Source: a virus (lineage: Duplodnaviria; Caudoviricetes). From it: a stretch of 38,856 nucleotides of DNA. A model generated the notes under the pieces. It was not told where the DNA came from. It was given only the letters and a program-made list of their open reading frames with translations, and ran no database searches. How positions within the stretch are numbered: the first letter of the stretch is position 1; each line of letters begins with the position of its first letter. The DNA lies in IMG/VR virus record IMGVR_UViG_3300035433_000019, positions 1-38,856 of that record, one strand, 5' to 3'. Shown piece by piece: positions 1 through 13,379 of the stretch. The position numbers and the translations under genes are program-made.

Positions 1-426
1 ATGCGGCAGCTCACCCTTTTCGACGACAGCACTCCCAATCTTTCCGGCGTGATCCCCGCCGTGCGCGCGGCCATGAACCGCGCCGCAGGTGAAAGCGCGG
101 AAGGCCGGAAGCTGCTCGTCGACCGCATCAACGCCATCGCCAGATCTCACAACCTCAGGCTTACGCGGGGCAACGCCAGGGTCATTTCCAAGGACCTGCT
201 CGACAAGTGGCTGGCCCCGCACGACCGCGACCACACGCCCTCGCTTCTGGCGGTGGTGGTCTTCTGCCACGCCACCGGCGACTTCGGCCCGCTGGAAGCC
301 ATCCTGCGCACCTTCGGGCTGGGCATCCTCACGCCCGAAGTCCTGCGCGATGCGCACTTCGGCAGGGCCGTGAAGGAAGAGAAACTGGCGCGCAAGCGCC
401 GGAGACAACTGGAGGAAACCCTATGA
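1..426 (+). CDS. phage early regulatory protein (CII-like, putative)
   Basis: 141-aa ORF at head of early operon, helical with LDKWLAP motif, stop overlaps next ATG. Confidence 0.6.
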   Translation: MRQLTLFDDSTPNLSGVIPAVRAAMNRAAGESAEGRKLLVDRINAIARSHNLRLTRGNARVISKDLLDKWLAPHDRDHTPSLLAVVVFCHATGDFGPLEAILRTFGLGILTPEVLRDAHFGRAVKEEKLARKRRRQLEETL

Positions 427-698
427 TGACCAGAGCCGATTGCGGCCACCGGCGCGGTGACGCTTCAGACTTCATCAAGCGCGAACTGCGGCGGCGCAAC
501 CACACCATGCGCAGCCTTGCCGCCCTCATCGGCCTGTCTGGCGAAGCCGTGGCCAAGACCGTGCGCGGCGAACTGCACAGCCCCCGCGTGCTCGACGCGC
601 TTCGCGACCTTGGCGTGCCGGAAAAGTACCTGTTCGACCCGCGCAGACTGGCCCAGCCGCAACCCCTGACCCAACCCGAACGGCAGGACGCCGCGTAG
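423..698 (+). CDS. Ner/Cro-like HTH DNA-binding protein
   Basis: ATG 423 after GGAGG; IKRELRRRNHTMRSLAALIGLSGEAVAKTVRG is an HTH; sits immediately before the transposase as Mu ner does. Confidence 0.7.
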   Translation: MMTRADCGHRRGDASDFIKRELRRRNHTMRSLAALIGLSGEAVAKTVRGELHSPRVLDALRDLGVPEKYLFDPRRLAQPQPLTQPERQDAA

Positions 699-725
699 CG
701 CCCCCCGCACCAGCAGGGCCGAACC

Positions 726-2915
726 ATGAAGACCTTCAAGGACGCATACACCGCAGGCGAACTGGCCGCCGCGCTCGGAGTCACCGACCGCGCCGTCCAG
801 ATGCGCGCCCGGCGCGAAGGCTGGCAGGCCCGGCGCAGGCCGGGGCGTGGCGGCGGCAACGAATGGCTGGTCGTCTCCATGCCGGAAGGCACGGCGCTGG
901 CCGTGCGCATGGCGGAAGAACGCACCGCCGTGGCGGCTGCCGCGTCGGACCACCCGTCCACCCCATCCGCCCCGTCCACCTTGCCCGGCGCGCCCGCCCC
1001 GCTCGACCCCAAGCGCCGCCAGCAGGCCCTTGCCCGGCTGGACCTCGTGCGCCTGTACCTCGACTGGCTGCGCAGGCACGGCAAGTCCGTGCAGAGCCGG
1101 GCGGACTTCCTTGCCGCGTACGATGGCGGCGCGTGGCCGCAGCTGCTGGCCACGGTGGGGCCGGTCAGCTGGAAGACGCTGGAACGCTGGAAGGTGCAGC
1201 AGCGCCGCGCGGGCGACCTGATGGCCATCGCGGACAAGCGCGGTCTTGCCCACCGGGGCAAGTCGCTGCTCACCGAGCGGCACCGCCAGATCATCCTCGG
1301 CAAGGCGCTGCACATCAACAACCCCGCCATCAGCTACGTCTGCAATCAGGTAACCGGGCTCTGCAAGGCCGAGGGGCTGCACGTGCCGTCGCCTGCCACC
1401 ATCCGGCGCTTCCTGAACCAGTACATGGGCGACTGCCATGCGGAATGGACCTTCATCCGCGAGCGCAAGAAGGCATGGAACGACAAGGCCGCCATCTGGT
1501 TCGAGCGCAACTGGGGGCTGGTGGAGGTGGGCGACATCCTCATCGCCGACGGCCACACCCTGAACTTCGAGACGACCAACCCGGACACGGGCAAGCCCTG
1601 CCGCATGACCATGGTGCTGTGGTTCGACGGGGCCAGCAACTACCCGCTGGGGTGGGAACTGATGCCCACCGAGAACACGGCCAGCATCAGCGCCGCCCTG
1701 CGGCGGGCCTGCATCCGCCTCGGCAAGGTGCCGCGCATCGCCTACCTCGACAACGGCAAGGCGTTCCGCGCCCGGCACTTCAAGGGCTGCGCAGACTTCC
1801 GGCAGGCCGGGATCGTGGGCCTGTACGAAGACCTGGGCGTGCAGGTGATCCACGCATGGGCCTACCACGGGCAGTCCAAGCCCATCGAACGATTCTTCGG
1901 CACCTTCCACGAACTGGAAAACTGGGTGCCCTCGTACACGGGCCGCAGCATCGACACCAAGCCCGCCCGCATGCACCGGGGCGAGGCGATGCACCGCAAG
2001 TTGTACGACGCCCTCGGCGGACGCCCGCTGACGATGCAGGAAACGCACGCGGCCATTGCCCATTTCTTCGACGCCTACGTGCTGCGTCCGCAGCGCGGAC
2101 ACCTTGCCGGGCGCACTCCACACGAGATTTTCAGTGCCGGGCGCGGGCCGGGCCTGACCGCCGACGACCTGAACCGGCTGAACCTGTGGATGCTCTCGCG
2201 CGAGGTGCGGGAAATAGACCGGGGCGGCACGGTGCGCCTGCTTGGCCGCCGCTACTTCGCGCCGGAACTGTACGGCAAGAAACACGCGGTCGTGGTGCGC
2301 TACGACGACCAGCGCCCGCAGAGCGTGCTGGTGTACGCCACCGACGGGCGTTTCCTTGCCGAGGCGCGAGAGATGCAAACCCTGCATCCCGCTGCCTACT
2401 ACCTTGGCGAAGGTGAGCACCGCGAACAGCTTGCCGACGCCCTTGCCATCCGGCGCGAGCAAGAGAAGCTGGCCGGGGCCAGTTCGCGGGCGCTGCTGGA
2501 TGCGGTGGTCATTCCCGAACACCGGCAGCGCATGGCGCAACTGGCCAGCGACACCCCGGCGGCCCTGCCCGAAGGCGAAAGCGCCATCCCGGCCCACGCC
2601 CGCCGCGAACTGCCCACCCCCACCATCACCGATGACGAGCGCCGCGCCCACGACGCCATGCTGGCCGAACACCGCGCCCGCATGGCGGCCCGCCCGGCCT
2701 ACGAGGCCCCGTCGTTCTTCGCCTCGCAGCTCGACCGCTACGAGTTCCTTTTCCGGATTTCCGAGGTTCAGGGCCTGCCCCTGACCGAGGCCGACGCCAC
2801 ATTCAAGGCCGAGTACGAGCAGTCGGACGAATACCTTGAGGTGGCCCTGCCCCGCTACGAACAGCAACGCCGCCTGATTGCGCGCATGGCGGCCATGGAG
2901 GCTCGCGCATCATGA
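726..2915 (+). CDS. Mu-type DDE transposase (MuA-like)
   Basis: N-terminal HTH (YTAGELAAALGVTDRAVQ), catalytic IADGH / YLDNGKAF / SKPIERFF motifs, C-terminal Mu transposase-like region (VVVRYDD). Confidence 0.95.
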   Translation: MKTFKDAYTAGELAAALGVTDRAVQMRARREGWQARRRPGRGGGNEWLVVSMPEGTALAVRMAEERTAVAAAASDHPSTPSAPSTLPGAPAPLDPKRRQQALARLDLVRLYLDWLRRHGKSVQSRADFLAAYDGGAWPQLLATVGPVSWKTLERWKVQQRRAGDLMAIADKRGLAHRGKSLLTERHRQIILGKALHINNPAISYVCNQVTGLCKAEGLHVPSPATIRRFLNQYMGDCHAEWTFIRERKKAWNDKAAIWFERNWGLVEVGDILIADGHTLNFETTNPDTGKPCRMTMVLWFDGASNYPLGWELMPTENTASISAALRRACIRLGKVPRIAYLDNGKAFRARHFKGCADFRQAGIVGLYEDLGVQVIHAWAYHGQSKPIERFFGTFHELENWVPSYTGRSIDTKPARMHRGEAMHRKLYDALGGRPLTMQETHAAIAHFFDAYVLRPQRGHLAGRTPHEIFSAGRGPGLTADDLNRLNLWMLSREVREIDRGGTVRLLGRRYFAPELYGKKHAVVVRYDDQRPQSVLVYATDGRFLAEAREMQTLHPAAYYLGEGEHREQLADALAIRREQEKLAGASSRALLDAVVIPEHRQRMAQLASDTPAALPEGESAIPAHARRELPTPTITDDERRAHDAMLAEHRARMAARPAYEAPSFFASQLDRYEFLFRISEVQGLPLTEADATFKAEYEQSDEYLEVALPRYEQQRRLIARMAAMEARAS

Positions 2916-3613
2916 AAAAGGGCATCTTCATCGAAACGGACAACGTGGCGCGCCTGCGCCGGGCCTTGCGACAGGCGGAAGACACGGAACGTGGCCGCCC
3001 CGGCATGGTGGCGGTGTGGGGCGAGGCGGGCGTGGGCAAGACCATTGCCGCGCACAGCATGTACGCCCAGCACGGCGGGGCCTTTCTGCGGGTGCTGGAG
3101 GGCATGACCCAGCACGCCTTCCTTCAGGAACTGTGCTGGGAACTGATGGAGGCGCGGCCCCACGGCGCGCACCGCTGCCGCGCCGAAATCCTGCGCGCCC
3201 TCGATGCCGAACCCGTGACCATCTACGTGGACGAGGCCGACCGGCTGGATCTGCGCCGCCTTGAAGACCTGCGCGACATCCACGACATGTCCGGCTGCCC
3301 GGTGGTGCTCATTGGCGAGCAGCACCTGCCCGGCAAGCTGTCGCAGCGCAGCCGCATCGACGACCGCATCCCCGACGAATACCGGGTGGCCTTCACCGGC
3401 ATCAGCACGCAGGACGTGGCCCTGTACGCCATGGAGGGGGCCGACCTTGCCCTGACCACCGACGCCGCCGCGCTCATCCACAAGCAGGCCAGGGGCAACT
3501 TCCGCCGGGTTCACAACCTGCTGTTGTCGGTGGAATCCGCCGCCCGCGCCAGGAACACCGGCACGGTGGATGCGGCCCTCGTCAAGGCGGCGCTGCCCAC
3601 CGCGCGGAGGTAG
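2912..3613 (+). CDS. transposition AAA+ ATPase (MuB-like)
   Basis: Walker A GEAGVGKT, Walker B IYVDEAD, GNFR; ATGA overlap with the transposase. Confidence 0.93.
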   Translation: MKKGIFIETDNVARLRRALRQAEDTERGRPGMVAVWGEAGVGKTIAAHSMYAQHGGAFLRVLEGMTQHAFLQELCWELMEARPHGAHRCRAEILRALDAEPVTIYVDEADRLDLRRLEDLRDIHDMSGCPVVLIGEQHLPGKLSQRSRIDDRIPDEYRVAFTGISTQDVALYAMEGADLALTTDAAALIHKQARGNFRRVHNLLLSVESAARARNTGTVDAALVKAALPTARR

Positions 3614-3615
3614 CC

Positions 3616-4260
3616 ATGCGCACCGACGCCATGGACGCCGTGCGCGCCGCCCTGCGGTCCTTCTGCCCCACCGGCAAGGAATCCGTCACCACGCCGCAGC
3701 TTGCCGAAGCCCTTGGCCTGACCACGGAAAGCCAGCGCCAGTTGCTGCGCAGGCGGCTGCACGCCCTGATGGAACGTGGCGAGGTGGACAAGCCGGACCG
3801 GGGCCTCTGGCGGCTGGTGCCCGGCGTGGAACCGCGCCGCACGGGCGAAAGCTACGTGCGCATGTGGCGGGCCATCCGCATCCAGACCGCCGGGTGGCGT
3901 CTGGCGGACATCGCCATCATTGCCCGCGTGGAACGAACCACGGTGGGGCGGTACGTGCGCTGGCTGGAAGCGGAAGGCTACATCGCCCGGAACGGGCAGG
4001 ACGGCAACGCCAACCTGTGGCGACTGACCGCCGCCGGGCGCGAACGCCGCGAAACCCCGTGGCCGCCCATTGACCTGCCGATGGCCTACGAAGCCGAACG
4101 CCGCGCCACTGCCCAACTCTGCCGCATCCTGCTGCTGGAAGACCCGGACGTCCCCGCCACGCGGCGCAGGATTCAGCAACAGCTTGCCGTGCTTGTCGCA
4201 CGGTTTCCCATCACAACCACCGCAAACGGGGCCGACGCCCCGCCCGCCACGGAGGCATGA
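3616..4260 (+). CDS. winged-helix DNA-binding protein (two putative wHTH)
   Basis: TTPQLAEALGL and LADIAIIARVERTTVGRYVRWLEAEGYI segments; GGAGG upstream. Confidence 0.65.
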   Translation: MRTDAMDAVRAALRSFCPTGKESVTTPQLAEALGLTTESQRQLLRRRLHALMERGEVDKPDRGLWRLVPGVEPRRTGESYVRMWRAIRIQTAGWRLADIAIIARVERTTVGRYVRWLEAEGYIARNGQDGNANLWRLTAAGRERRETPWPPIDLPMAYEAERRATAQLCRILLLEDPDVPATRRRIQQQLAVLVARFPITTTANGADAPPATEA

Positions 4261-4472
4261 CCATGGTGGCCGACAAGATCAGGGATGCCCGGCTGGCGCT
4301 GGGCGTGCTGGCCGGACAGGTCAGCGAGGAAACGTGGGGGCTCATCCGGTGCATCCAGAACGAACTGGATGCGGCGGCCGGACAGGTTGAAACCATGGAA
4401 CGGACGTTCCCCGTGCCCGGCATGCCCGCCGGGTCCGCGAACACGGCAGGCGAAACGCAGGAGACGCACTGA
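4257..4472 (+). CDS. hypothetical phage protein (coiled coil)
   Basis: 71 aa, translationally coupled at both ends, GGAGG upstream. Confidence 0.6.
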   Translation: MTMVADKIRDARLALGVLAGQVSEETWGLIRCIQNELDAAAGQVETMERTFPVPGMPAGSANTAGETQETH

Positions 4473-4981
4473 TGGCACGACGCAAGCCCAACCCGGTAAT
4501 CATCGCCGACCGCCCGCAGGCCGAAGGCGCACTGGCGGAAATCGCGGTCATCGACCGCAAGCTGACCGGCATCGAAACGGACATGAACACGGCCATCGAC
4601 GCGGCCAAGGCTGCCGCCGGTCAGGCCAGCGCCCCGTTGCTGGCCCGCCGGGCCGACCTTGAAAACGCGGTGGCCACGTGGGCCACGCTGAACAAGGCCG
4701 AACTGTTCATGGACCGCAAGAGCATCGACCTCGGCTTCGGCGTCGTCGGCTTCCGGCAGGCCACCAAGCTCAAGCAGGTGCCCAGGGTAACGGTGGCCAT
4801 GACGCTGGAACGCCTGCGCGAGCTGGGCTTTCTCGACGGCATCCGGGTGAAGGAAGAGGTCAACAAGGAAGTGGCGGCGGGCTGGCCCGCCTCGAAGCTG
4901 GAACTGGTGGGCCTGAAGCGGCACATCACCGACGACTTCTACATCGAGATCGCGCGCGAGGACGTGGAGCGCGCGGCCTGA
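4472..4981 (+). CDS. gam: host-nuclease inhibitor Gam (Mu Gam family)
   Basis: Coiled N-terminus, KSIDLGFGVVGFR and IRVKEEVNKE motifs, C-terminal DDFYIE typical of Mu Gam. Confidence 0.9.
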   Translation: MARRKPNPVIIADRPQAEGALAEIAVIDRKLTGIETDMNTAIDAAKAAAGQASAPLLARRADLENAVATWATLNKAELFMDRKSIDLGFGVVGFRQATKLKQVPRVTVAMTLERLRELGFLDGIRVKEEVNKEVAAGWPASKLELVGLKRHITDDFYIEIAREDVERAA

Positions 4982-4997
4982 CGCACCGGAGGCGGAC

Positions 4998-5288
4998 ATG
5001 GCCCACGACAGCATCGACATCCCCCGCTACGCGCGGCTCTACGCCCAGCGCGTGCTGCGCAACACCAACCTGGACCCCGGCGACATGCCGGAACTGTCCC
5101 GCAACACCGAATTCAAGGCGCGGGCCGTGCGGGAAAAGGCCGACGTGACGCGCACCATCCGGCGAGAGGCGGGGCACCTGCTGGTGGCGTCGGGCCTGCC
5201 CGCCGATGCGGTGCGCAAGGCCCTGCGTCTAGAGCACTGGTGGCAACCGGAACAGCGCGGCGCGAAGCACAAGGAAAAGGTGCGATGA
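4998..5288 (+). CDS. hypothetical phage protein
   Basis: 96 aa, GGAGG SD, phage-like codon usage. Confidence 0.65.
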   Translation: MAHDSIDIPRYARLYAQRVLRNTNLDPGDMPELSRNTEFKARAVREKADVTRTIRREAGHLLVASGLPADAVRKALRLEHWWQPEQRGAKHKEKVR

Positions 5289-5289
5289 A

Positions 5290-5361
5290 TGCGAAACCGC
5301 CCCGTCCATGCGGCGGGGCGGTCGCCCGGCGGTGGCGCGCCGGGCCTGACGAGCAGCCACC
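5290..5361 (+). ncRNA. hammerhead ribozyme, type II, with pseudoknot
   Basis: GAAA 5293-5296; stem III 5296-5306/5312-5322; GUC cleavage triplet 5321-5323; stem I 5324-5331/5338-5345; CUGACGA 5346-5352; stem II 5290-5292/5353-5355; loop GUGGC pairs with GCCAC 5356-5360. Confidence 0.9.
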
Positions 5362-5379
5362 CCGCACAAAGGAAACGGC

Positions 5380-5829
5380 ATGGCCGAACATCGCAAGAAA
5401 TGCGCGTCTGTTTGCGTAAAAAATGGCGCAATCGGGTCGGGCACCGTGGAATTCTTTCCCGCAGCGCAATGGGGCGGCCCGCAGGGGCTGTACCGCCTGC
5501 GCATGGGGCGCAAGTGGCTGGACGCCCCCCACGGCCTGCACGGCACCGGGCGCTTCCTGACCGTGGCCGAGATTGCCGCGCTGCTGGCCTACCACATCTT
5601 TGGCGTGGATCTGCGCCACGCCGCGCCGCCCCCACCACCGGACCACCTGCCCCGCAAGCGCCTTGTGGCCGTGCGCACCGGCGGCACCGACGAATACCCC
5701 CTGCACGACGTGACCCGCATCGCCAGCGAGGCCCCCGTGCTGGGGGCCGACGGGCGCTGGTACGTGGCCGTGCATCTTTACGGGCGGGGCACCGTGCTGG
5801 TGCCCGCCGAGGAGTGTCACCCGAAATGA
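5380..5829 (+). CDS. hypothetical phage protein
   Basis: 149 aa, AAGGA upstream, stop overlaps gemA ATG. Confidence 0.65.
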   Translation: MAEHRKKCASVCVKNGAIGSGTVEFFPAAQWGGPQGLYRLRMGRKWLDAPHGLHGTGRFLTVAEIAALLAYHIFGVDLRHAAPPPPPDHLPRKRLVAVRTGGTDEYPLHDVTRIASEAPVLGADGRWYVAVHLYGRGTVLVPAEECHPK

Positions 5830-6320
5830 GAACGAACGCCGCCCACCGCAAGGCCCTGCTGGGCAAGTCTTCCATCGGCGTGAAGCAGCTCGGCATTGAT
5901 GCCGACACCCTGCGCGAGATGTTGCGCAACCTGTTCGGCAAGGAATCGCGGGCCGAGCTGACCGCTCCGGAGCTGGTGCGCCTGTGCGACCACCTGGCGC
6001 AGCGCGGTGCGCGGTTCACGTCCGGCGACGCACCACGTGAAGGCAAGCCGTACAAGGTGAAGGCCGCCGGGCGGCGCAGCGACTGGTACGAGATTCCCGA
6101 AGGGCCGCAGGCCGCCCGCAAGCGCGGCATCGCGGCCATGTGGCGCAAGCTGGGCTACGACATGACCAGTCTGGACACCCGCGTGCAGCGGGCTTTTGGC
6201 GTGGAGGCGTTCCGCTGGCTGGACGACGAGGGCAACCTGCGCACCCTTGCAAGGGATCTGGAAGCGCGCCTGCGGGCCAGGGAACAGCGGGAGCAGGATG
6301 CGGCAGGGGCCACCGCGTGA
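5826..6320 (+). CDS. gemA: GemA-like regulatory protein (Mu gp16/DUF1018)
   Basis: Start reassigned to ATG 5826; KQLGIDADTLREML..GKESRAELT and IAAMWRKLG...LDTRVQRAFGVEAFRWL patterns. Confidence 0.82.
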   Translation: MRTNAAHRKALLGKSSIGVKQLGIDADTLREMLRNLFGKESRAELTAPELVRLCDHLAQRGARFTSGDAPREGKPYKVKAAGRRSDWYEIPEGPQAARKRGIAAMWRKLGYDMTSLDTRVQRAFGVEAFRWLDDEGNLRTLARDLEARLRAREQREQDAAGATA

Positions 6321-6682
6321 CGGACGAAGAACGCGCGGCGCTCGATGTGGCCATCCGGCAGCACTACGGAACGCCGCACCGGTTCTGCAAGCAGACGGGG
6401 CTGCCGCGCGGCACGGTCTATCAGGTGCTGGCCGGGCGCTACGCGGGCGACATGGACAGACAGGGCGAGCGCATCCGGCAGGCATTGCGGCAACCCCGCA
6501 CCGCCGGGCTCGACGCGGCCAGCATCGGGCGCATCCTGCGCCGGCACGCCTGCGCCCGTTGCCTGTCGCGCGGGTCCGGCCTGTGCGACCGCTGCGAGCC
6601 CATGTTCGCGGCGCAGACACGAGACATCCTTGCCCTTGCGGGCCAATCGACGGAGGAAACGGATGGCGACGCTGATAGATGA
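6317..6682 (+). CDS. HTH protein with C-terminal Cys cluster
   Basis: GTG 6317 overlapping gemA stop; FCKQTGLPRGTVYQVLAGRY HTH; CARC...CDRC. Confidence 0.6.
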   Translation: MTDEERAALDVAIRQHYGTPHRFCKQTGLPRGTVYQVLAGRYAGDMDRQGERIRQALRQPRTAGLDAASIGRILRRHACARCLSRGSGLCDRCEPMFAAQTRDILALAGQSTEETDGDADR

Positions 6683-7130
6683 CGTGGTGAAGCTGGTGCG
6701 GCACGGCTGGCGACCCTATCAGGGCACCGTGGAGGCGGCGGTGTACGAGCGACTGCGCTGCCCGCGCGCGCCGTTGCCCGCGCCGGGCGCATCGCGGCGC
6801 ACCAGCGGGCCGTACTGGTTCCACCGGGCGGACGTGTTCCTGTGCATCGGCTGCGGTCGGCGGTGCAGCCTGAACCGGCCCGACGGCTTCGCGCCGCCGC
6901 TGCCCATCCGCTATCCGTACAGCAGGGAACTGCCCTTCACCCTCACCCCGCAGGAAATGGTGACCCGGCTGCGCCTGCTGAACGTGAACCAGGCGGCCTA
7001 CTGCCTGAACGCCAGCGCCAGCCAGATCTACCACTGGATAGCAGAGGGCAGGCTGCGGCGGCTGAAGGATTCGCCCGTGCGCGTCCCCGCCGAGGACGTG
7101 CAGGCCATGATGGAAGATTGGGAGGATTAA
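6663..7130 (+). CDS. Cys-cluster plus excisionase-type HTH protein, candidate transcription activator
   Basis: ATG 6663 after GGAGG; CIGCGRRC; C-terminal LLNVNQAAYCLNASASQIYHWIAEGRL MerR/Xis-like HTH; occupies the Mor/C position. Confidence 0.7.
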   Translation: MATLIDDVVKLVRHGWRPYQGTVEAAVYERLRCPRAPLPAPGASRRTSGPYWFHRADVFLCIGCGRRCSLNRPDGFAPPLPIRYPYSRELPFTLTPQEMVTRLRLLNVNQAAYCLNASASQIYHWIAEGRLRRLKDSPVRVPAEDVQAMMEDWED

Positions 7131-8470
7131 ATCCTTGTGAACAATGGGTTTTTTAACACTCTGCGTTCTATCAACTCCCATGAGAACCCTAGTTCGTGTA
7201 ATAATATTGCCCACATGATCTTTTTAAAAAAGCTTGCGACATCGATATATTTATCTATTGTATAAGATCTTTGTGCTGGTTTTGAATGATGCGTCAATTC
7301 ATTTCTCATTTCAACAGCATCCCTTATGTAGTTTTTATAATCTTTAATTTTCCCATACGACGTGTTTGAAATTACTTTTTCTATTAATTTAGCTGCCTTG
7401 TCTCTGAGAGAGAATTCGTTGCCATGTTCAAGTTGGCTTAAAAATTTATTTTTAATTTTTTCGTTCTTGATGCTGCTTATCGCATCCTTCATATTCTCTT
7501 TTATTGTTAAGAACTCATCGTCATTGCAATATGCACCTTTGTAAAATTCCCTTTCAAGCATTTCTATGGACTGGATTATTCTGTAGAATGTATTCTCGAT
7601 GTATATAGTTCGTCCGGAGAAAACCTCTCTAGCCTTGGATATTATCCCGTCAATTGCGAACGATTTTTCAAAGAAATTCACAAAAGCAGTTCGCAAGTCG
7701 TCCTTGCCCGTGAAAAAAACAACACTTCTGCCAATATCTGCATCTGGTGCATACATCATGCGCGGGGGTGATATTTCGTATTCTCCATCGCTATCGTATA
7801 AGGAAATATCTGTTGGCATCATGGAGACACCAACAAAAATCAAAAACAGGCCTTGTATTTTGCATACGATGTCAGAAAAAAAATCATATGACTTTGGATT
7901 GCTTGATTCTATCTCGATTCGCACCTGAGGATCCAAAGATGCGCGGCGCTTTCCATAACGAAATATTGACGATTCTACTATCTTAATGTTCACATCATCT
8001 AATACATCAACATCCATCCAGATATAATTTCCCATTGCTATAGAAAGAGTCATTCCACTTTCATTATGTTTGATGCTATTTCTTTCATCAACTTTGAACC
8101 ATTTTGAGAAATTTTCAAATGTAAATGAGCATTTAAAAAACCTATTGTTATCGTGACTGCGTAAGTGATCACCCAAAAAAACACCATTTACATGAAAATC
8201 GTTCAATGTACCAATTTTTCCATGATTAATACTCTTGCAAAAACAATTAATGAGTGTGCAATGACCGCAATCAGTTGCGCCATGTATTGATGTCATCCCT
8301 GCATCAAACATATCTAAGTATTTGTCACTCTCTACGAATAAGTGCAATTCGCCGCCATCTTCTTTGTGCTGATAAACGCCAGAAACCCATTCATTAGTTG
8401 ACCCGCTATAATCAACACTCCACATGCCAAACAACTGGAATTTGTTGCCTGTGGTAATTATCCTGCTCAT
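7127..8470 (-). CDS. ApeA-like HEPN domain protein (putative anti-phage RNase)
   Basis: AT-rich antisense moron; N-terminal GMW...VSG ApeA-NTD-like start, C-terminal SLRDK and RNELTH (RxxxxH) motif. Confidence 0.8.
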   Translation of the reverse strand: MSRIITTGNKFQLFGMWSVDYSGSTNEWVSGVYQHKEDGGELHLFVESDKYLDMFDAGMTSIHGATDCGHCTLINCFCKSINHGKIGTLNDFHVNGVFLGDHLRSHDNNRFFKCSFTFENFSKWFKVDERNSIKHNESGMTLSIAMGNYIWMDVDVLDDVNIKIVESSIFRYGKRRASLDPQVRIEIESSNPKSYDFFSDIVCKIQGLFLIFVGVSMMPTDISLYDSDGEYEISPPRMMYAPDADIGRSVVFFTGKDDLRTAFVNFFEKSFAIDGIISKAREVFSGRTIYIENTFYRIIQSIEMLEREFYKGAYCNDDEFLTIKENMKDAISSIKNEKIKNKFLSQLEHGNEFSLRDKAAKLIEKVISNTSYGKIKDYKNYIRDAVEMRNELTHHSKPAQRSYTIDKYIDVASFFKKIMWAILLHELGFSWELIERRVLKNPLFTRI

Positions 8471-8585
8471 AATTAAATTCCTGTTTTAAGGTTTGCACAG
8501 ATAAGGTTGTGACAAAAACGACATCCTAGCCCAATTTATTTACATAACCTTTCTAGCTTACGGAAAACGCTCCGTCCACGTGGCA

Positions 8586-8607
8586 GATCCTCCCCAAAAG
8601 GAGGATC
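8586..8607 (+). promoter_or_regulatory. hairpin occluding holin Shine-Dalgarno
   Basis: GATCCTCC-ccaaaa-GGAGGATC perfect 8-bp stem; GGAGG lies in the 3' arm, ATG at 8610. Confidence 0.6.
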
Positions 8608-8609
8608 GT

Positions 8610-9011
8610 ATGCGTTTTACCCCCCGAAAACTTCCCCGCTTCCGTCCCCCGCGCATGGGCTGGTGCATGGCGCTGGCCGTTGTGCTGCTGCTTGGCGTGG
8701 CCCGTTTCGCGCCGCAGAACCTGCCCGTCATCATGTACAAGGGCTCGCTGCTCACGCTGGCCAGCGTGGGCGGCTACTGGCTGGCCCGCTGGGTGTTTCC
8801 CTATGGCCGCCCCGACCAGTGGCTGACCGGTGACCGCGCGGTAACCCTTGCCGCCAGCGCCGGGGCCATGCTGTCGGAGCGCATGGGCGTTTCGCTGCCC
8901 GTCGGTCCCGGCACCGTGCTGGCCGTGGCCGTGGGCATGGCCTGCGTGAGCATGATCTGCCGGGCGCTGCTGATGCTGGGGGCCATGCTGGCCGTGGGGC
9001 TGGGCCTGTGA
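8610..9011 (+). CDS. putative holin (2/3-TM type)
   Basis: Hydrophobic segments, GGYWLARWVFPYGRP and C-terminal MLAVGLGL typical of Mu-like phage holins; first gene of the lysis cassette. Confidence 0.8.
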   Translation: MRFTPRKLPRFRPPRMGWCMALAVVLLLGVARFAPQNLPVIMYKGSLLTLASVGGYWLARWVFPYGRPDQWLTGDRAVTLAASAGAMLSERMGVSLPVGPGTVLAVAVGMACVSMICRALLMLGAMLAVGLGL

Positions 9012-9754
9012 TGCGGGGACGTTCTTACCCCGCATGCTGCGTCAGGCTTCGTGGCCTGCTTCGGGGCAGGACGGAAGAGTCCAGCCCCGATGCAGCCCGC
9101 TTGCCTTCCTTGCCTGCGTGGCAACTCCGCCCCCTCATCCTGTGCGTGCTGTTTTTGTGCGCACTCCCCGCCATCTCCCACGCCGTCACCATCCCGCCGG
9201 ATGCCCAGCGCCATCGGGCCACGCTGACCCGTGAAGCCCGGTTCCGCTTCGGCATGGATGCGCCGGTGGCCACCTTTGCCGCGCAGATCCACCAGGAGAG
9301 CGAATGGCGCGCCGGGGCGGTTTCGCCCGTGGGCGCGCAAGGGCTGGCCCAGTTCATGCCCGGCACCGCCCGCTGGCTGCCCACGGTCATGCCCGACACG
9401 GGCCAGCCCGCACCGTTCAACCCCGCGTGGGCCATCCGGGCGCTGGTGGCCTACGGCTGGTGGATCCTGCAACGGGTGCGCGCCGCCACCCCCTGCGACC
9501 GCATGGCCAAGGGGCTTGCCGGGTATAACGGCGGCCCCGGCTGGCTGACGCGCGACGAGCGCAAGGCCGCCGCGCAGGGGCTGGACCCGGACGTGTGGTG
9601 GGACAGCGTGGAAACCGTCAACGCGGGCCGCAGCCGTGCCGCCTTCCGAGAGAACAGGGGCTATCCCCGGCGCATCCTGCGGGTGCTGGAGCCGGTCTAC
9701 ATGGCGGCGGGCTGGGGCGCGGGTTCCTGCCCGGCGGAAGGGGGGCGCTCCTGA
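9008..9754 (+). CDS. lytic transglycosylase (SLT) endolysin
   Basis: QIHQESEW, SPVGAQGLAQFMPGTA, AGYNGG, ENRGYPRRI motifs; N-terminal hydrophobic signal; exact start uncertain (GTG 9008 or ATG 9011). Confidence 0.9.
   Translation: MMRGRSYPACCVRLRGLLRGRTEESSPDAARLPSLPAWQLRPLILCVLFLCALPAISHAVTIPPDAQRHRATLTREARFRFGMDAPVATFAAQIHQESEWRAGAVSPVGAQGLAQFMPGTARWLPTVMPDTGQPAPFNPAWAIRALVAYGWWILQRVRAATPCDRMAKGLAGYNGGPGWLTRDERKAAAQGLDPDVWWDSVETVNAGRSRAAFRENRGYPRRILRVLEPVYMAAGWGAGSCPAEGGRS
9011..9133 (+). repeat. palindromic interspersed element, copy 1 (in frame in endolysin 5' end)
   Basis: GCTGCGTCAGGC 9036-9047 and CCTTCCTTGCC 9104-9114, same motifs and 68-nt offset as the copy at 20929/20997. Confidence 0.7.
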
Positions 9755-10173
9755 TGTTCGACGCCATCACCGCCTTCCTTTCGCCCAAGCCCCGCCTGCT
9801 CGCGCTGGCCGCCGTGGCCGTGGCCCTGCTGGTGGCGCTGGCCGCCGTGGGGGTGCGTTGCGCCCTGGTGCAGGCCGAACTGCGCACCGAACAGGCCACG
9901 CACGCCACCACACGGGAACAGCTTGCCGCCGCCGTGACGGAGGGCAACCGCTGGGCCGCCGTGGCCCGGCAGGCCAACGCCACGGCGGACGCGCAGGCGG
10001 AATACGCCGCCGCCTGCATCGAGCGGGAACAGAAGACCGCCACGGATGCCGCCGCCCGCGCGGCCATCCTTTCCAGCGTCAAACCCCGCCCGCGCACCGA
10101 TGCGGAGCGTCAGGAGGTTGTGGACGATGCCACGCGCATGGCCGCTGCTGATCGCCTCAATCGCCCTTGGTAG
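9754..10173 (+). CDS. inner-membrane spanin (Rz-like)
   Basis: ATG 9754, N-terminal TM then Ala-rich coiled coil, follows endolysin. Confidence 0.75.
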   Translation: MFDAITAFLSPKPRLLALAAVAVALLVALAAVGVRCALVQAELRTEQATHATTREQLAAAVTEGNRWAAVARQANATADAQAEYAAACIEREQKTATDAAARAAILSSVKPRPRTDAERQEVVDDATRMAAADRLNRPW

Positions 10174-10408
10174 CGGCTGCGCGGCCCGGCCCGTGCCCGT
10201 GGTGCCCCCGGCCCCGGTGGTGGTGGGCGCAAAGCCCTGCGCCGCGCCGCCCCGGCCCGCGCTGCCGCCCGTGGACCGGGCCACGCCCTTTGACGCACCC
10301 GCCAACGTGGACGCGCTGCTGCGGCGCGACGACATCCACCGCAGCTATGCCGAAGCGCTGGAAGCCGCGCTCGCCTGTTACAAACGCCAGATTCCGGAGG
10401 GTCGATGA
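10127..10408 (+). CDS. outer-membrane lipoprotein spanin (Rz1-like)
   Basis: ATG 10127 overlapping the i-spanin 3' end in another frame; signal with lipobox LGSGC; Pro-rich. Confidence 0.75.
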   Translation: MPRAWPLLIASIALGSGCAARPVPVVPPAPVVVGAKPCAAPPRPALPPVDRATPFDAPANVDALLRRDDIHRSYAEALEAALACYKRQIPEGR

Positions 10409-10899
10409 ACCCCGCAGACATCACCAAACTCGTGCAGGCCCTGCAAGTGATCGCAGGCATCCTGCAACAGCTCGGCGTGCCGGGCCTTGTGGCCATCATG
10501 CTTGCCGGGCCTGCCGCCGTGCTGATCACCGTGCTGGTTCTCGACCATCTGCGTGGCCGCAAGCAGGCCGAGCTGCTGGAAACCTACCGCAAGGATGTGG
10601 CCGCCATGGTGGCCGCGCTACAGGCCGAGTCGGACAACCGGCGCGAAGAAGCGTCCGGCAGGCTGGAAACCTATCGGGCCGACATGCAGACCGTGCTGCG
10701 CCAACTGGGCGAGCACCAGAAGGAAACGGCCCAGTACTACCGCGACAACGTGGAACTGGTGAAGGTGTACGAGCGCATGGCCAACGACCTGACCGACGTG
10801 GTTGTCAGCAACACCCGCACCATGGAGCGCGTGGTGAACCTGATCGAAAACAACATGAGCTGTCCGGCTGCACGGCAGGCCGCACGGGGGAACAAATGA
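10405..10899 (+). CDS. membrane-anchored coiled-coil phage protein
   Basis: N-terminal TM, coiled coil, C-terminal CP motif; conserved position after lysis genes. Confidence 0.65.
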   Translation: MNPADITKLVQALQVIAGILQQLGVPGLVAIMLAGPAAVLITVLVLDHLRGRKQAELLETYRKDVAAMVAALQAESDNRREEASGRLETYRADMQTVLRQLGEHQKETAQYYRDNVELVKVYERMANDLTDVVVSNTRTMERVVNLIENNMSCPAARQAARGNK

Positions 10900-11138
10900 G
10901 CGAACGCACCCAGTACATGGGCCAGCGCGTGGAACTGCGCCAGCAGCGCCAGCGGGTGGCCCTTGATTGCGAGGCCCTGCGCGACCGGCTGCGCCTGGCG
11001 CTGCCCCTTGCGGAAGAAGTGTCCGCCATCGACCGCGAGGTGGTGGTGAACGCGGCCATGGCCCTGCACGAGCGCCTGGGCGAATTGCAGGGCATCGACC
11101 GCAAGCTGGCCATCCTCAACCGCGAACTGGGCGACTAG
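10896..11138 (+). CDS. hypothetical phage protein
   Basis: ATG 10896 overlapping previous stop (ATGA); MSERTQYMGQR..., 80 aa. Confidence 0.65.
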   Translation: MSERTQYMGQRVELRQQRQRVALDCEALRDRLRLALPLAEEVSAIDREVVVNAAMALHERLGELQGIDRKLAILNRELGD

Positions 11139-11162
11139 TCCCGAAGCGAGCAGGGAGCCACC

Positions 11163-11762
11163 ATGGGCAGGGAGCACGAACCGGAAACCGTCTGGCGCGC
11201 GCAGGAACTGTACTGCTCCGACCGCCTGACCTTCGAGGGCGTGGCGGCGTCCACCGGCGTGGCCGTCTCCACCCTGTGCCGCTGGGCCGACAGGTACGGC
11301 TGGCGCGCAAAGCGAGAGGAACTGGCACGGGCCGAAAGCGAGATCCGCGCCGACAAGGTGCTGGCCCGGTCCAAGACGCTGAAGGCCCTGCTGAACAAGC
11401 CGGATGCGCAGAACGCCTTTGCCGTGTCCGCGCTGGAAACGCTGGCCCTGAAAGAGGCGGAGGCCGCCCGGCAGGGGCAGGCCCTGCCGGATGCCGCCAC
11501 GGGCGAGCTGCCCGCCATCCGCACGCGGGCCGATGCCGTGGCCGCCGTGCGCACCGCCGTGGAGCGCCGCCTGCACATGCTGCTGGCCCGCCCGGAATCG
11601 GTGGACTTGCGCGCCCTGCAAGAGGTGCAACGATGCCTTGATTTGCTGGCCACGCTGGAACGCTCCGTCGCGCCAGACGAGGACACGGCGGAAGCCGCGC
11701 GCACGCGGGGCATCCCTGCCGACATCGCCCAAACCCTGCGCGAAGCGTTGGGGCTCAAATGA
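11163..11762 (+). CDS. putative terminase small subunit (HTH)
   Basis: AQELYC...TFEGVAASTGVAVSTLCRWADRYGW HTH; directly upstream of terL. Confidence 0.7.
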   Translation: MGREHEPETVWRAQELYCSDRLTFEGVAASTGVAVSTLCRWADRYGWRAKREELARAESEIRADKVLARSKTLKALLNKPDAQNAFAVSALETLALKEAEAARQGQALPDAATGELPAIRTRADAVAAVRTAVERRLHMLLARPESVDLRALQEVQRCLDLLATLERSVAPDEDTAEAARTRGIPADIAQTLREALGLK

Positions 11763-11771
11763 CGACGGCCC

Positions 11772-11863
11772 CCCGCACGTCCAGTGCGGGATGGCCTGTC
11801 ACTTGCCGGGAGCGCGGTCCCGGCTGCGCTCCCGCTGCGCGGTTGGCGGGCATCCTGCCCGCC
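11772..11863. repeat. cluster of three GC-rich palindromes (REP-like)
   Basis: CCCGCAC/GTGCGGG, GGGAGCGCGG/CTGCGCTCCC, GGCGGGCA/TGCCCGCC stems. Confidence 0.55.
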
Positions 11864-11891
11864 GGAACTTTCATTTTCCCGTGAGGACAGC

Positions 11892-13379
11892 ATGCCCCAC
11901 ACCGCAGACATCCTGCTGGGCTACCAGCGCGCATGGATAGACGACAAGCACCCCGTGAAGTGGTGGGAAAAGTCCCGCCGCATCGGCGCAAGCTGGGCAG
12001 AGGCGCTGGACGCCGTGCTGGCCGCATCGCTGGCGCGCGAGCACGGCGGGCAATCCACCTACTACCTCGCCTACAACATGGACATGACCGAGCAGTTCAT
12101 CAAGGACTGCGCATGGTGGGCGCGCGCCCTGAACGTGGTGGCCGGGCAGATAGAGGACGGGCTGTGCCTGCTGGGCGACCCGGACCGCGACGTGCTGGTC
12201 TACCGCATCCGCTTTGCCAGCGGGCACGAGGTGGTCACCCTGCCGTCAGAGGCGCGCAGCCTGCGCTCCAAGCAGGGGCGCGTGGTCATCGACGAGGCGG
12301 CCTTCGTGGACGACCTGGAGGAGGTGCTGAAGGCGGCCATGGCCCTGCTGATGTGGGGCGGTCAGGTGCGCGTTATCTCCACCCACAATGGCGAGGAAAA
12401 CCTGTTCAACGAGCGCATTCAGGAAATCCGGGCCGGTAAGTGGGACTATGCCCTGCACCGCACCACGCTGGACGATGCGCTGGACCACGGCCTGTACAGG
12501 GCCATTTGCCGCCAGCTCGGTACGCCGTGGTCGCCGCAGGCAGAAACCGCGTGGCGCGCGGACATCGTGCATCGGCACGGCGACAACGCGGACGAGGAAC
12601 TGTTCTGCATCCCCAAGCGTAGCGGCGGCGCATGGCTGCCCGGCGCGCTGATCGAAGGGTGCATGGCCGAACAGGCGGCGGACGTGCCGGTGCTGCGCTG
12701 GCGGCCCCCGGTGGACACCTTTGTGGATGTGCCCCTACCGCAGGCGGAGGCCATGGTGGCCGCATGGCTGGAAGAGCACGTGGCCCCGCTGCTGGCCATG
12801 CTGCCGAAGGACCGCAACCACTATGTGGGCGGCGACTTTGGCCGATCCGGCGACCTTTCGGTGTTCTGGCCACTGACGGAGCGGGTGGACCTGACCATGG
12901 CCACCCCGTTTCTGCTGGAACTGCGCGATGCCCCGTTCCGCACGCAGGAACAGATTTTGACCTACCTCGTCAACGGACTGCCCCGCTGGGGCGGCGTGTC
13001 CCTTGATGCGCGCGGCAACGGGCAGGCCCTAGCCGAATACGCCCGCCAGACGTGGGGGCCTTCCATGGTGGCCGAGGTGATGTTATCGGAGGGCTGGTAT
13101 CGTGAGCACATGCCCCGCGTGAAGGCGCGCATGGAAGACCGCACCATCGTCCTGCCCCGCGATGCGGACGTGAAGGACGATCTGCGCAGCCTGCGCATGG
13201 TGCGCGGCGTGCCCAGGGTGCCGGAAACCCGCAACCGTGGCGGCAACGGCCAGCGCCACGCGGATTCCGCCGTGGCGCTGGCGCTGGCCCTGCATACGCA
13301 GGCCACACTGGGGGCAGTGGAGCCGTGGGAAGTGGAGACGATTAAGAAGGTGATCTTTTATCGCTGCTTGGACACTTAG
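11892..13379 (+). CDS. terL: terminase large subunit (Mu gp28-like)
   Basis: LLGYQRAW, EKSRRIGASW, VVIDEAAF, ISTHNG, GGDFGRSGD, HADSAVA; start ATG 11892 after GAGG. Confidence 0.95.
   Translation: MPHTADILLGYQRAWIDDKHPVKWWEKSRRIGASWAEALDAVLAASLAREHGGQSTYYLAYNMDMTEQFIKDCAWWARALNVVAGQIEDGLCLLGDPDRDVLVYRIRFASGHEVVTLPSEARSLRSKQGRVVIDEAAFVDDLEEVLKAAMALLMWGGQVRVISTHNGEENLFNERIQEIRAGKWDYALHRTTLDDALDHGLYRAICRQLGTPWSPQAETAWRADIVHRHGDNADEELFCIPKRSGGAWLPGALIEGCMAEQAADVPVLRWRPPVDTFVDVPLPQAEAMVAAWLEEHVAPLLAMLPKDRNHYVGGDFGRSGDLSVFWPLTERVDLTMATPFLLELRDAPFRTQEQILTYLVNGLPRWGGVSLDARGNGQALAEYARQTWGPSMVAEVMLSEGWYREHMPRVKARMEDRTIVLPRDADVKDDLRSLRMVRGVPRVPETRNRGGNGQRHADSAVALALALHTQATLGAVEPWEVETIKKVIFYRCLDT

What the first reader, a model, noticed from the sequence alone, without database searches (positions are those of the whole stretch)
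5290..5361. Intact type II hammerhead ribozyme inside the early operon of a Mu-like prophage
Seen: every core element is present in type II order: UGC-GAAA, an 11-bp stem III, GUC (predicted cleavage after C5323), a perfect 8-bp stem I, CUGACGA, and GCA closing stem II. The stem I loop GUGGC can also pair with GCCAC 5356-5360. Established: this is the hammerhead consensus with a pseudoknot-type tertiary contact, and hammerheads occur in prophages with unknown function. Inference: self-cleavage would split the transposase-gam part of the early mRNA from the 5380/gemA/activator part, 56 nt before the next start codon, and could set stability or timing of the early-to-late switch.
Basis: partly seen in the sequence, partly recalled or inferred. 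Interest (0 to 1): 0.85.

Follow-up and report, generated by a model that had tools for sequence, protein, structure and literature searches.

The report
Self-cutting RNA upstream of phage gemA
A complete copy of a well-known self-cutting RNA (type II hammerhead ribozyme) fills the gap between two early genes of a Mu-like prophage, at a spot where about a quarter of such phages carry one; it is predicted to cut the long early message in two and likely leaves both halves with hairpin-protected ends, so it is an ordinary member of a known family whose job is still untested.

Summary
Real, but a known kind in a known setting. Rfam Hammerhead_II scores 58.1 bits (cut-off 37) at 5289-5362; core, stems, cut site (after C5323) and pseudoknot are as described, and stem I and the pseudoknot covary in 55 relatives. 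Type II hammerheads in prophages and their enrichment near Mu-like phage genes are published, and this scan found the same layout on two other genomes. Added here: 34 of 146 sampled gemA loci carry one, all 41 copies sense and upstream of gemA (two exceptions in a second sample); coliphage Mu has none. The same ribozyme sits unannotated in the model Pseudomonas phages DMS3, D3112, JBD30, JBD24 and MP29. One of five informative RNA-seq assemblies of a Pseudomonas relative breaks exactly at the predicted cut; two bridge it (weak hint). The DMS3/JBD24 accessory-gene indel starts at the ribozyme's 3' end. Best reading: constitutive processing of the early mRNA into hairpin-capped pieces, insulating the gemA block from swappable upstream genes. 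The 'early-to-late switch' and 'activator' are unsupported here (no Mor gene found). Value lies in testability in DMS3/JBD30.

The parts
4472..4981 (+). gam (Mu Gam-like DNA end protection), upstream context
   Evidence: Pfam PF07352 125 bits, PHROG 491
4998..5288 (+). 96-aa ORF of unknown function; its stop codon ends 2 nt before the ribozyme
   Evidence: phrog_23109; no usable atlas family
5291..5296 (+). stem II 5' strand (GC) and core GAAA
   Evidence: invariant in 61 of 61 relatives
5297..5321 (+). stem III hairpin, 10 bp, loop CAUGC; would form the 3' end of the upstream product
   Evidence: changes in 2 of 3 close relatives fall in the loop or keep pairing
5321..5323 (+). GUC triplet; predicted cut between C5323 and G5324
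   Evidence: sequence and hammerhead consensus; cleavage not tested
5324..5345 (+). stem I hairpin, 8 bp, loop GUGGCG; would form the 5' end of the downstream product with no single-stranded overhang
   Evidence: 8 of 8 pairs show two-sided changes, 97% of cells paired in 55 relatives
5346..5355 (+). core CUGACGA, stem II 3' strand (GC) and invariant linker A
5356..5360 (+). pseudoknot strand GCCAC pairing with loop I GUGGC
   Evidence: 4 of the 5 pairs kept in 49-54 of 55 relatives, with C-G and A-U swaps; the fifth pair only in 9 of 55
5369..5373 (+). Shine-Dalgarno-like AAGGA of the next gene
   Evidence: sequence
5380..5829 (+). 149-aa ORF of unknown function, first gene of the downstream product
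   Evidence: phrog_18900; 6 homologues, one named from Nitratidesulfovibrio termitidis; no fold assigned
5826..6320 (+). gemA (Mu gp16)
   Evidence: Pfam PF06252 68.6 bits
6320..7130 (+). two HTH / excisionase-like ORFs ending the likely early operon (not Mor)

Best explanation
This is a type II pseudoknotted hammerhead ribozyme between a stop codon and a ribosome-binding site in a Mu-like early operon; it is predicted to cut itself after C5323 soon after transcription and likely acts as a host-independent mRNA processing site that leaves both halves hairpin-capped. Shown: the motif, its position, its covariation and its recurrence upstream of gemA across bacterial groups. Inferred from hammerhead chemistry: the upstream piece (transposase to the 96-aa ORF) would end in stem III and a 2',3'-cyclic phosphate; the downstream piece (149-aa ORF, gemA, two HTH genes) would start with a 5'-OH directly on stem I and the pseudoknot, 56 nt before the start codon. 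Inferred, untested: such ends resist 3' exonucleases and 5'-end-dependent RNase E (recalled), so the gemA block gets a fixed, stable leader whatever accessory genes lie upstream: a natural counterpart of the synthetic RiboJ insulator and of RNase III sites in T7 early RNA (T7 comparison recalled).
For: Rfam 58.1 bits; covariation: 11 of 13 pairs with two-sided changes, 0 of 500 shuffles as high, slid registers far lower. Strand and side: 41 of 41 copies in 34 of 146 gemA loci sense and upstream, 0 in 558 kb downstream, 0 antisense; 23 of 23 gemA-bearing records in a ribozyme-first sample likewise, and gam upstream in 5 of 5; 40 of 42 in the window's own subtype. Neighbours change while the ribozyme stays: 32 upstream and 32 downstream protein clusters around 69 Mu-type copies. 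Cut-to-start distance is narrow: 36-110 nt, median 47, n=64. Perreault 2011 (sections 6 and 11 read): prophage type II hammerheads cut ~2-kb polycistronic transcripts in vitro and in E. coli; 14 of 18 tested were active. RiboJ (hammerhead plus hairpin) is used to give a uniform 5'-UTR and higher stability (PMC7536230 passages). Weak in vivo hint from a Pseudomonas relative (L014): in RNA run X9 one contig ends on the C of GUC (6344) and the next starts there with a 1-nt overlap, while its three other junctions overlap by 30 nt.
Against: No cleavage, stability or expression data for this sequence. Of 5 informative RNA runs of the relative, X3 and X4 bridge the site in whole-prophage contigs at depth ~300, and X1 (ends 6340) and X13 (gap 6316-6357) break near it but also elsewhere; raw-read runs X23, X24 laid 0 reads. 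About three quarters of gemA loci and Mu itself lack it, with no other Rfam ribozyme in 32 of 33 descriptor-negative loci, so it is dispensable. Two copies lie downstream of gemA (L438, second copy in L458). Two of three Desulfovibrionaceae genomes tested carry a TIGR00649 (RNase J, name recalled) gene besides RNase E/G, which could degrade a 5'-OH product as with glmS.
Confidence: 0.5

Rival explanations
1. The cut destabilises the downstream (gemA) piece or the upstream piece and so lowers or shortens expression, as glmS cleavage does through RNase J.
For: glmS precedent (PMC6765202 section 13); RNase J-family gene in 2 of 3 Desulfovibrionaceae genomes; in run X9 contig depth is ~206 before and 55-120 after the site (contig depth is a poor measure). 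GemA licenses Gabija defence against JBD30 (PMC12407980 passages), a reason to keep it low.
Against: Same ribozyme in a Pseudomonas genome with no RNase J hit; the 3' product starts on a paired base of stem I, which usually blocks 5' exonucleases (recalled).
Confidence: 0.12
2. Translation-coupled switch: a ribosome ending on the upstream stop codon covers GC-GAAA and delays folding, and the folded ribozyme hides the next ribosome-binding site until it cuts, so cleavage links downstream translation to upstream ribosome traffic.
For: Upstream stop within 5 nt in 50 of 62 Mu-type copies (random positions 2.8%) and 39 of 54 in the window's subtype; start codon within 20 nt of the pseudoknot in 52 of 64.
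Against: Ordinary gene junctions in these operons are just as tight (-16 to +38 nt), so compaction explains the spacing; in the window the Shine-Dalgarno is predicted mostly open before and after cutting.
Confidence: 0.13
3. The ribozyme is kept mainly as a mobile gene-cassette header or recombination anchor (or as a near-neutral passenger); cutting is tolerated rather than used for regulation.
For: DMS3 and JBD24 are 99.3% identical up to the ribozyme's GCAGCC tail, where JBD24 has a ~690-nt extra gene; in L194, L226, L326 and L365 that 223-241-aa gene is flanked by two ribozyme copies; some non-Mu phages carry 7-9 copies between small genes; patchy presence.
Against: Catalytic core and pseudoknot are kept with compensatory changes while stems diverge, which means selection on RNA activity, not on DNA homology; strong strand bias.
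Confidence: 0.15
4. A regulated timer of the early-to-late switch.
For: In Casadabanviruses the downstream piece carries gemA and the late activator.
Against: No Mor in this record; no added sensor domain; absent from Mu and most relatives.
Confidence: 0.1

Closest known systems
Type II hammerhead ribozymes with loop I/3'-tail pseudoknot (Rfam RF02276; Perreault et al. 2011, PMC3088659)
   Same: Core, topology, 2-bp stem II, pseudoknot, prophage setting between genes; the Rfam consensus is nearly this subtype.
   Different: Nothing structural. Single copy rather than the tandem arrays tested in that paper; function of any prophage copy still unproven.
Ribozymes enriched near Mu-like phage genes (Roth 2014, Weinberg 2015, as cited in PMC10085705; primary papers not read)
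   Same: Hammerhead next to Mu-like early genes.
   Different: Here the side, strand, spacing and frequency relative to gemA are counted, and the model phages DMS3, D3112, JBD30 are named as carriers; whether the primary papers' supplements already list them was not seen.
RiboJ synthetic insulator (PMC7536230 passages)
   Same: Hammerhead cut followed by a hairpin and a ribosome-binding site, giving a fixed 5' leader.
   Different: Natural, internal to an operon, and both hairpins are the ribozyme's own stems; the effect is untested.
glmS ribozyme (PMC6765202 section 13)
   Same: Self-cleavage inside a bacterial mRNA upstream of a gene.
   Different: No ligand or sensor domain evident; flanking genes vary.
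RNase III processing sites in phage T7 early mRNA (recalled, no call)
   Same: Intergenic cuts that turn one early transcript into shorter messages.
   Different: Needs no host enzyme and leaves 5'-OH / cyclic-phosphate ends.

Membership tests
Hammerhead ribozyme type II (RF02276) | Score above the Rfam gathering cut-off over the whole model | tested here: met
   58.1 vs 37 bits, model positions 1-66
Hammerhead ribozyme type II (RF02276) | Core CUGANGA, GAAA and NUH triplet without substitutions | tested here: met
   CUGACGA, GAAA, GUC
Hammerhead ribozyme type II (RF02276) | Stems I and III closed by loops, stem II open | tested here: met
   covariation in relatives
Hammerhead ribozyme type II (RF02276) | Pseudoknot between loop I and the tail after stem II | tested here: met
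   5 bp in the window; 4-bp register kept with compensatory changes
Hammerhead ribozyme type II (RF02276) | Self-cleavage 3' of C17 giving 2',3'-cyclic phosphate and 5'-OH | not testable with these tools
   Only a weak contig-break hint in a Pseudomonas relative: 1 of 5 RNA runs exact, 2 near, 2 bridging
Mu-like transposable prophage | DDE transposase A, transposition ATPase B, Gam, GemA in one early cluster | tested here: met
Mu-like transposable prophage | Mor/C-type transcription activator after gemA | tested here: not met
   PF08765 not found at E <= 0.1 in the 74%-complete record; HTH genes in its place
glmS-like ligand-gated ribozyme | Ligand-binding domain and fixed metabolic gene downstream | tested here: not met
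   No other Rfam match; 32 different downstream protein clusters
Intrinsic terminator | Hairpin followed by a U run | tested here: not met
   No terminator-like site near 5290-5380
Rolling-circle / circular-RNA ribozyme pair | Two ribozymes (tandem or opposite strands) flanking a unit | tested here: not met
   One copy in the record

The most novel reading that the evidence does not exclude
Mu-like phages use this ribozyme as a two-level gene-cassette insulator: at the RNA level it cuts the nascent early transcript so that Rho loaded on, or decay started in, swappable accessory genes cannot reach the gemA/activator block, and at the DNA level repeated copies are the homology anchors through which accessory genes are gained and lost (DMS3 versus JBD24 versus double-copy prophages). 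It would be the first defined function for a phage self-cleaving ribozyme, testable with one point mutation in DMS3 or JBD30.
Probability: 0.25. Interest if true: 0.72.

Novelty: new member of a known kind. Interest (0 to 1): 0.38.

Why it matters
The copy itself is ordinary. What matters is that the role of self-cleaving ribozymes in bacteria and phages is called largely elusive apart from glmS (PMC6765202, 2019, section 13), and the same ribozyme sits unannotated at the same place in DMS3, D3112, JBD30, JBD24 and MP29, genetically tractable phages used widely in anti-CRISPR and defence work. One inactivating point mutation there would test a question open since 2011. It also warns that some Casadabanvirus gene models overlap or ignore a structured RNA.

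Tried and rejected
Chance match: rejected. Terminator reading of the GC-rich hairpins: no U tail. The 343-aa ORF starting at 5289 in frame with gemA is read as a GC-rich artefact: GemA homology covers only its last ~160 residues. Substitution by other ribozyme classes: Rfam on 33 descriptor-negative gemA loci found one more type II hammerhead (L298) and a tRNA, no twister, pistol or hatchet; descriptor found no type I or III. Coliphage Mu 1-12000: no Rfam match to E 0.05. Function of the flanking ORFs: atlas searches gave no usable family. Stop-codon adjacency as proof of ribosome coupling: not accepted, compaction explains it. Raw-read RNA runs X23, X24 held no reads of the locus, so no read-level ends were obtained; no RNA run was sought for the window itself, the single run search went to the Pseudomonas relative L014. 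GemA alignments were too diverse for the search for related loci. Literature: 10 searches; none showed a paper on the function of a hammerhead in Mu-like phages or naming it in D3112/DMS3/JBD30; JBD30 paper PMC11445458 has 0 hits for 'ribozyme'; Perreault supplements had 0 hits for D3112, DMS3, Desulfovibrio, but the alignment file was cut when stored, and Roth 2014 / Weinberg 2015 with their supplements were not read, so these phages may already be listed there or in Rfam's full alignment.

Full report
Observation. The window reads GC-GAAA (5291-5296), a 10-bp stem III, GUC (5321-5323), an 8-bp stem I with loop GUGGCG, CUGACGA (5346-5352), GC, A and GCCAC (5356-5360). Rfam Hammerhead_II matches 5289-5362 at 58.1 bits against a cut-off of 37, the only gathering-level match in 38,856 bases and the only copy in the record; 0 of 100 shuffles give the core pattern. 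Three close relatives (Gam 99% identical) keep the core, stem I and tail unchanged; their 0-3 differences lie in the stem III loop or keep pairing.

Setting. The record is an IMG/VR provirus, 74% complete. PHROG and Pfam give a Ner-like regulator, transposase A, ATPase B, an HTH protein, Gam (4472-4981), a 96-aa unknown (4998-5288), the ribozyme, a 149-aa unknown (5380-5829), GemA (5826-6320) and two HTH proteins, then an AT-rich apeA gene on the other strand and lysis genes. No Mor was found. No + strand promoter or terminator consensus lies in 1-7000. A homologue of the 149-aa ORF is named from Nitratidesulfovibrio termitidis, so the host is likely a Desulfovibrionaceae.

Structure is under selection. 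From descriptor scans of my loci I kept 107 distinct type II hammerheads, 69 in Mu-like context; 66 of the 69 have exactly 22 nt between the cut and CUGA. In an ungapped alignment of 55 distinct stem I-core-tail segments, 90.5% of cells pair, 11 of 13 pairs show two-sided changes, no shuffle of 500 reached any measure and slid registers scored 0.03-0.13 against 0.58 (the sequences are related, so this is not a probability). Four pseudoknot pairs are general; the fifth, present in the window, is not (9 of 55). Stem II is 2 bp followed by an invariant A.

Position rule. Sample 1, gam-first: 11 of 34 held records (of 40 loci) carry the ribozyme. Sample 2, ribozyme-first: of 124 pattern loci, 55 passed the descriptor; I dropped 3 weak and 2 near-duplicate loci and sent 50, of which 47 records were searched; 40 matched Rfam at E <= 0.001, 23 carry gemA, and in 23 of 23 the ribozyme is upstream on the same strand; gam lies upstream in 5 of 5. 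Sample 3, gemA-first: of 241 loci, 150 had 2.5 kb upstream and 146 remained after exact de-duplication; 34 carry the ribozyme (19 of 73 viral, 15 of 73 GTDB), all 41 copies sense and upstream at 84-4205 nt, none in 558 kb downstream or on the other strand. This is a lower bound: Rfam found one more in 33 descriptor-negative loci and no other ribozyme class. Samples 2 and 3 share some records. Sample 4, the window's own subtype: 57 loci, 54 distinct copies; 42 had a GemA hit within the flank, 40 downstream of the ribozyme and 2 upstream. Carriers named by the GTDB records include Pseudomonas, Acinetobacter, Azotobacter, Cupriavidus, Amphritea, Rheinheimera, Oceanospirillum and Fundidesulfovibrio. 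Coliphage Mu has none.

Model phages. The ribozyme alone matches 121 phage records, 119 of them Pseudomonas phages (GenBank and RefSeq duplicates included). I fetched 5 of them (MP29, DMS3, D3112, JBD30, JBD24): each scores 66-68 bits, starts on the base after the stop codon of the last small early gene and lies before gemA and the late activator, and none is annotated as an RNA.

Anatomy. The upstream stop codon is within 5 nt in 50 of 62 Mu-type copies against 2.8% of random positions (ORFs called mechanically), and a start codon follows the cut at a median of 47 nt. Ordinary junctions in these operons are equally tight, so this shows a stop-ribozyme-SD-start cassette but not ribosome coupling. 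Flanking proteins fall into 32 upstream and 32 downstream clusters. DMS3 and JBD24 are 99.3% identical up to the GCAGCC tail, where JBD24 has about 690 extra bases encoding a 223-aa protein, then 97.5% identical again; in L194, L226, L326 and L365 that gene lies between two ribozyme copies. The DMS3 arrangement is what recombination between two copies would leave; this is inference from a few related genomes.

Is it cut in vivo? Not tested for the window. For the Pseudomonas relative L014 (cut predicted after C6344) I laid 8 of 24 listed runs. X9 (RNA): one contig ends at 6344, the next begins at 6344, a second variant ends at 6333; the other three junctions overlap by 30 nt as assembly branches do. 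A reverse-transcriptase stop at stem III is a poor explanation because the upstream contig runs through that stem. X1 ends at 6340 and X13 has a gap 6316-6357, but both are shallow and have other gaps. X3 and X4 (RNA) and X16 (kind not on record) bridge the site in long contigs, which DNA in the library or uncut precursor would give. X23 and X24 laid nothing. This is a weak hint: 1 exact, 2 near, 2 bridging among 5 informative RNA runs.

Mechanism. Shown: motif, covariation, strand, side, spacing. From established chemistry: a cut gives a 2',3'-cyclic phosphate and a 5'-OH (PMC6765202 passages). Because stem II is the open stem, each product keeps a hairpin at its new end. Inferred: both ends resist the usual entry points of decay (recalled), so the downstream gemA block gets a standard leader, independent of whichever accessory genes precede it, much as RiboJ does in synthetic circuits (PMC7536230 passages). 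I give this 0.5. Rivals are destabilisation by RNase J, found in 2 of 3 Desulfovibrionaceae genomes tested, ribosome-coupled switching, a cassette anchor or passenger, and a timer of the late switch.

What is known. Perreault 2011 (sections 6 and 11 read; passages elsewhere) described type II hammerheads, the pseudoknot and prophage copies flanking genes, showed cleavage of polycistronic RNA and proposed processing into operon- or gene-length mRNAs. PMC10085705 (passage) states that the strongest gene associations of bacterial hammerhead and twister ribozymes are with Mu-like phage genes and that the reason is unknown. PMC6765202 (section 13) calls their roles largely elusive. PMC11124144 (passages) lists a type II hammerhead in Oleidesulfovibrio alaskensis. 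PMC4378225 (passages) maps the accessory regions of these Pseudomonas phages; the passages I saw name no RNA there. PMC12407980 (passages) shows GemA is uncharacterised and sensitises JBD30 to Gabija. PMC13725137 (abstract) gives a eukaryotic-virus precedent for cleavage promoting translation. Ten searches found no functional study in Mu-like phages (see Tried and rejected); unread primary papers and cut supplements may list these copies. Two earlier notes of this scan report the same layout on other genomes; my reading was written down before I saw them.

Verdict. Observation confirmed; interpretation partly supported; a new member of a known family in its best-known setting. Interest 0.38, carried by the testability in DMS3/JBD30, the position rule and the cassette-boundary lead.

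Noticed in passing
window 7127-8470 (- strand): ApeA-like HEPN defence gene (PF18862, PF18739) at 36% GC against 65-69% around it; the three closest prophages share both flanks but not this sequence, so the slot between the early operon and the lysis genes is a variable cargo site.
   Followed up: partly
G038 (L047), G066 (L122), G081 (L162): Records without gemA that carry 7-9 type II hammerheads within about 5 kb, one between nearly every small gene.
   Followed up: no
G058:C1:4310-4467 (L106); L123 near 1731-1799: Two hammerheads back to back with no gene between them.
   Followed up: no
L170 (JBD24) about 4745-4765: After the extra 223-aa gene, a short stretch resembling a collapsed second ribozyme (stop, GCG, part of stem I, GAUGA) precedes the next gene; may be chance.
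   Followed up: partly
L455:2587-3033: A 37%-identical homologue of the window's 149-aa ORF directly follows a hammerhead in another prophage with a different upstream gene, suggesting the ribozyme-ORF unit travels together.
   Followed up: partly
L022:6641-6842: RT-15 RNA (RF03018, 91.8 bits) in a gam-bearing viral locus.
   Followed up: no
L245, L365, L121; L322: Core variants CUGAAGA and a GUA triplet among otherwise standard copies.
   Followed up: no
L167-L169 (DMS3, D3112, JBD30) 4071-4367: The gene after the ribozyme is annotated with different starts (60 aa in DMS3/D3112, 98 aa in JBD30); the longer form starts 4 nt after the pseudoknot with no clear Shine-Dalgarno.
   Followed up: no
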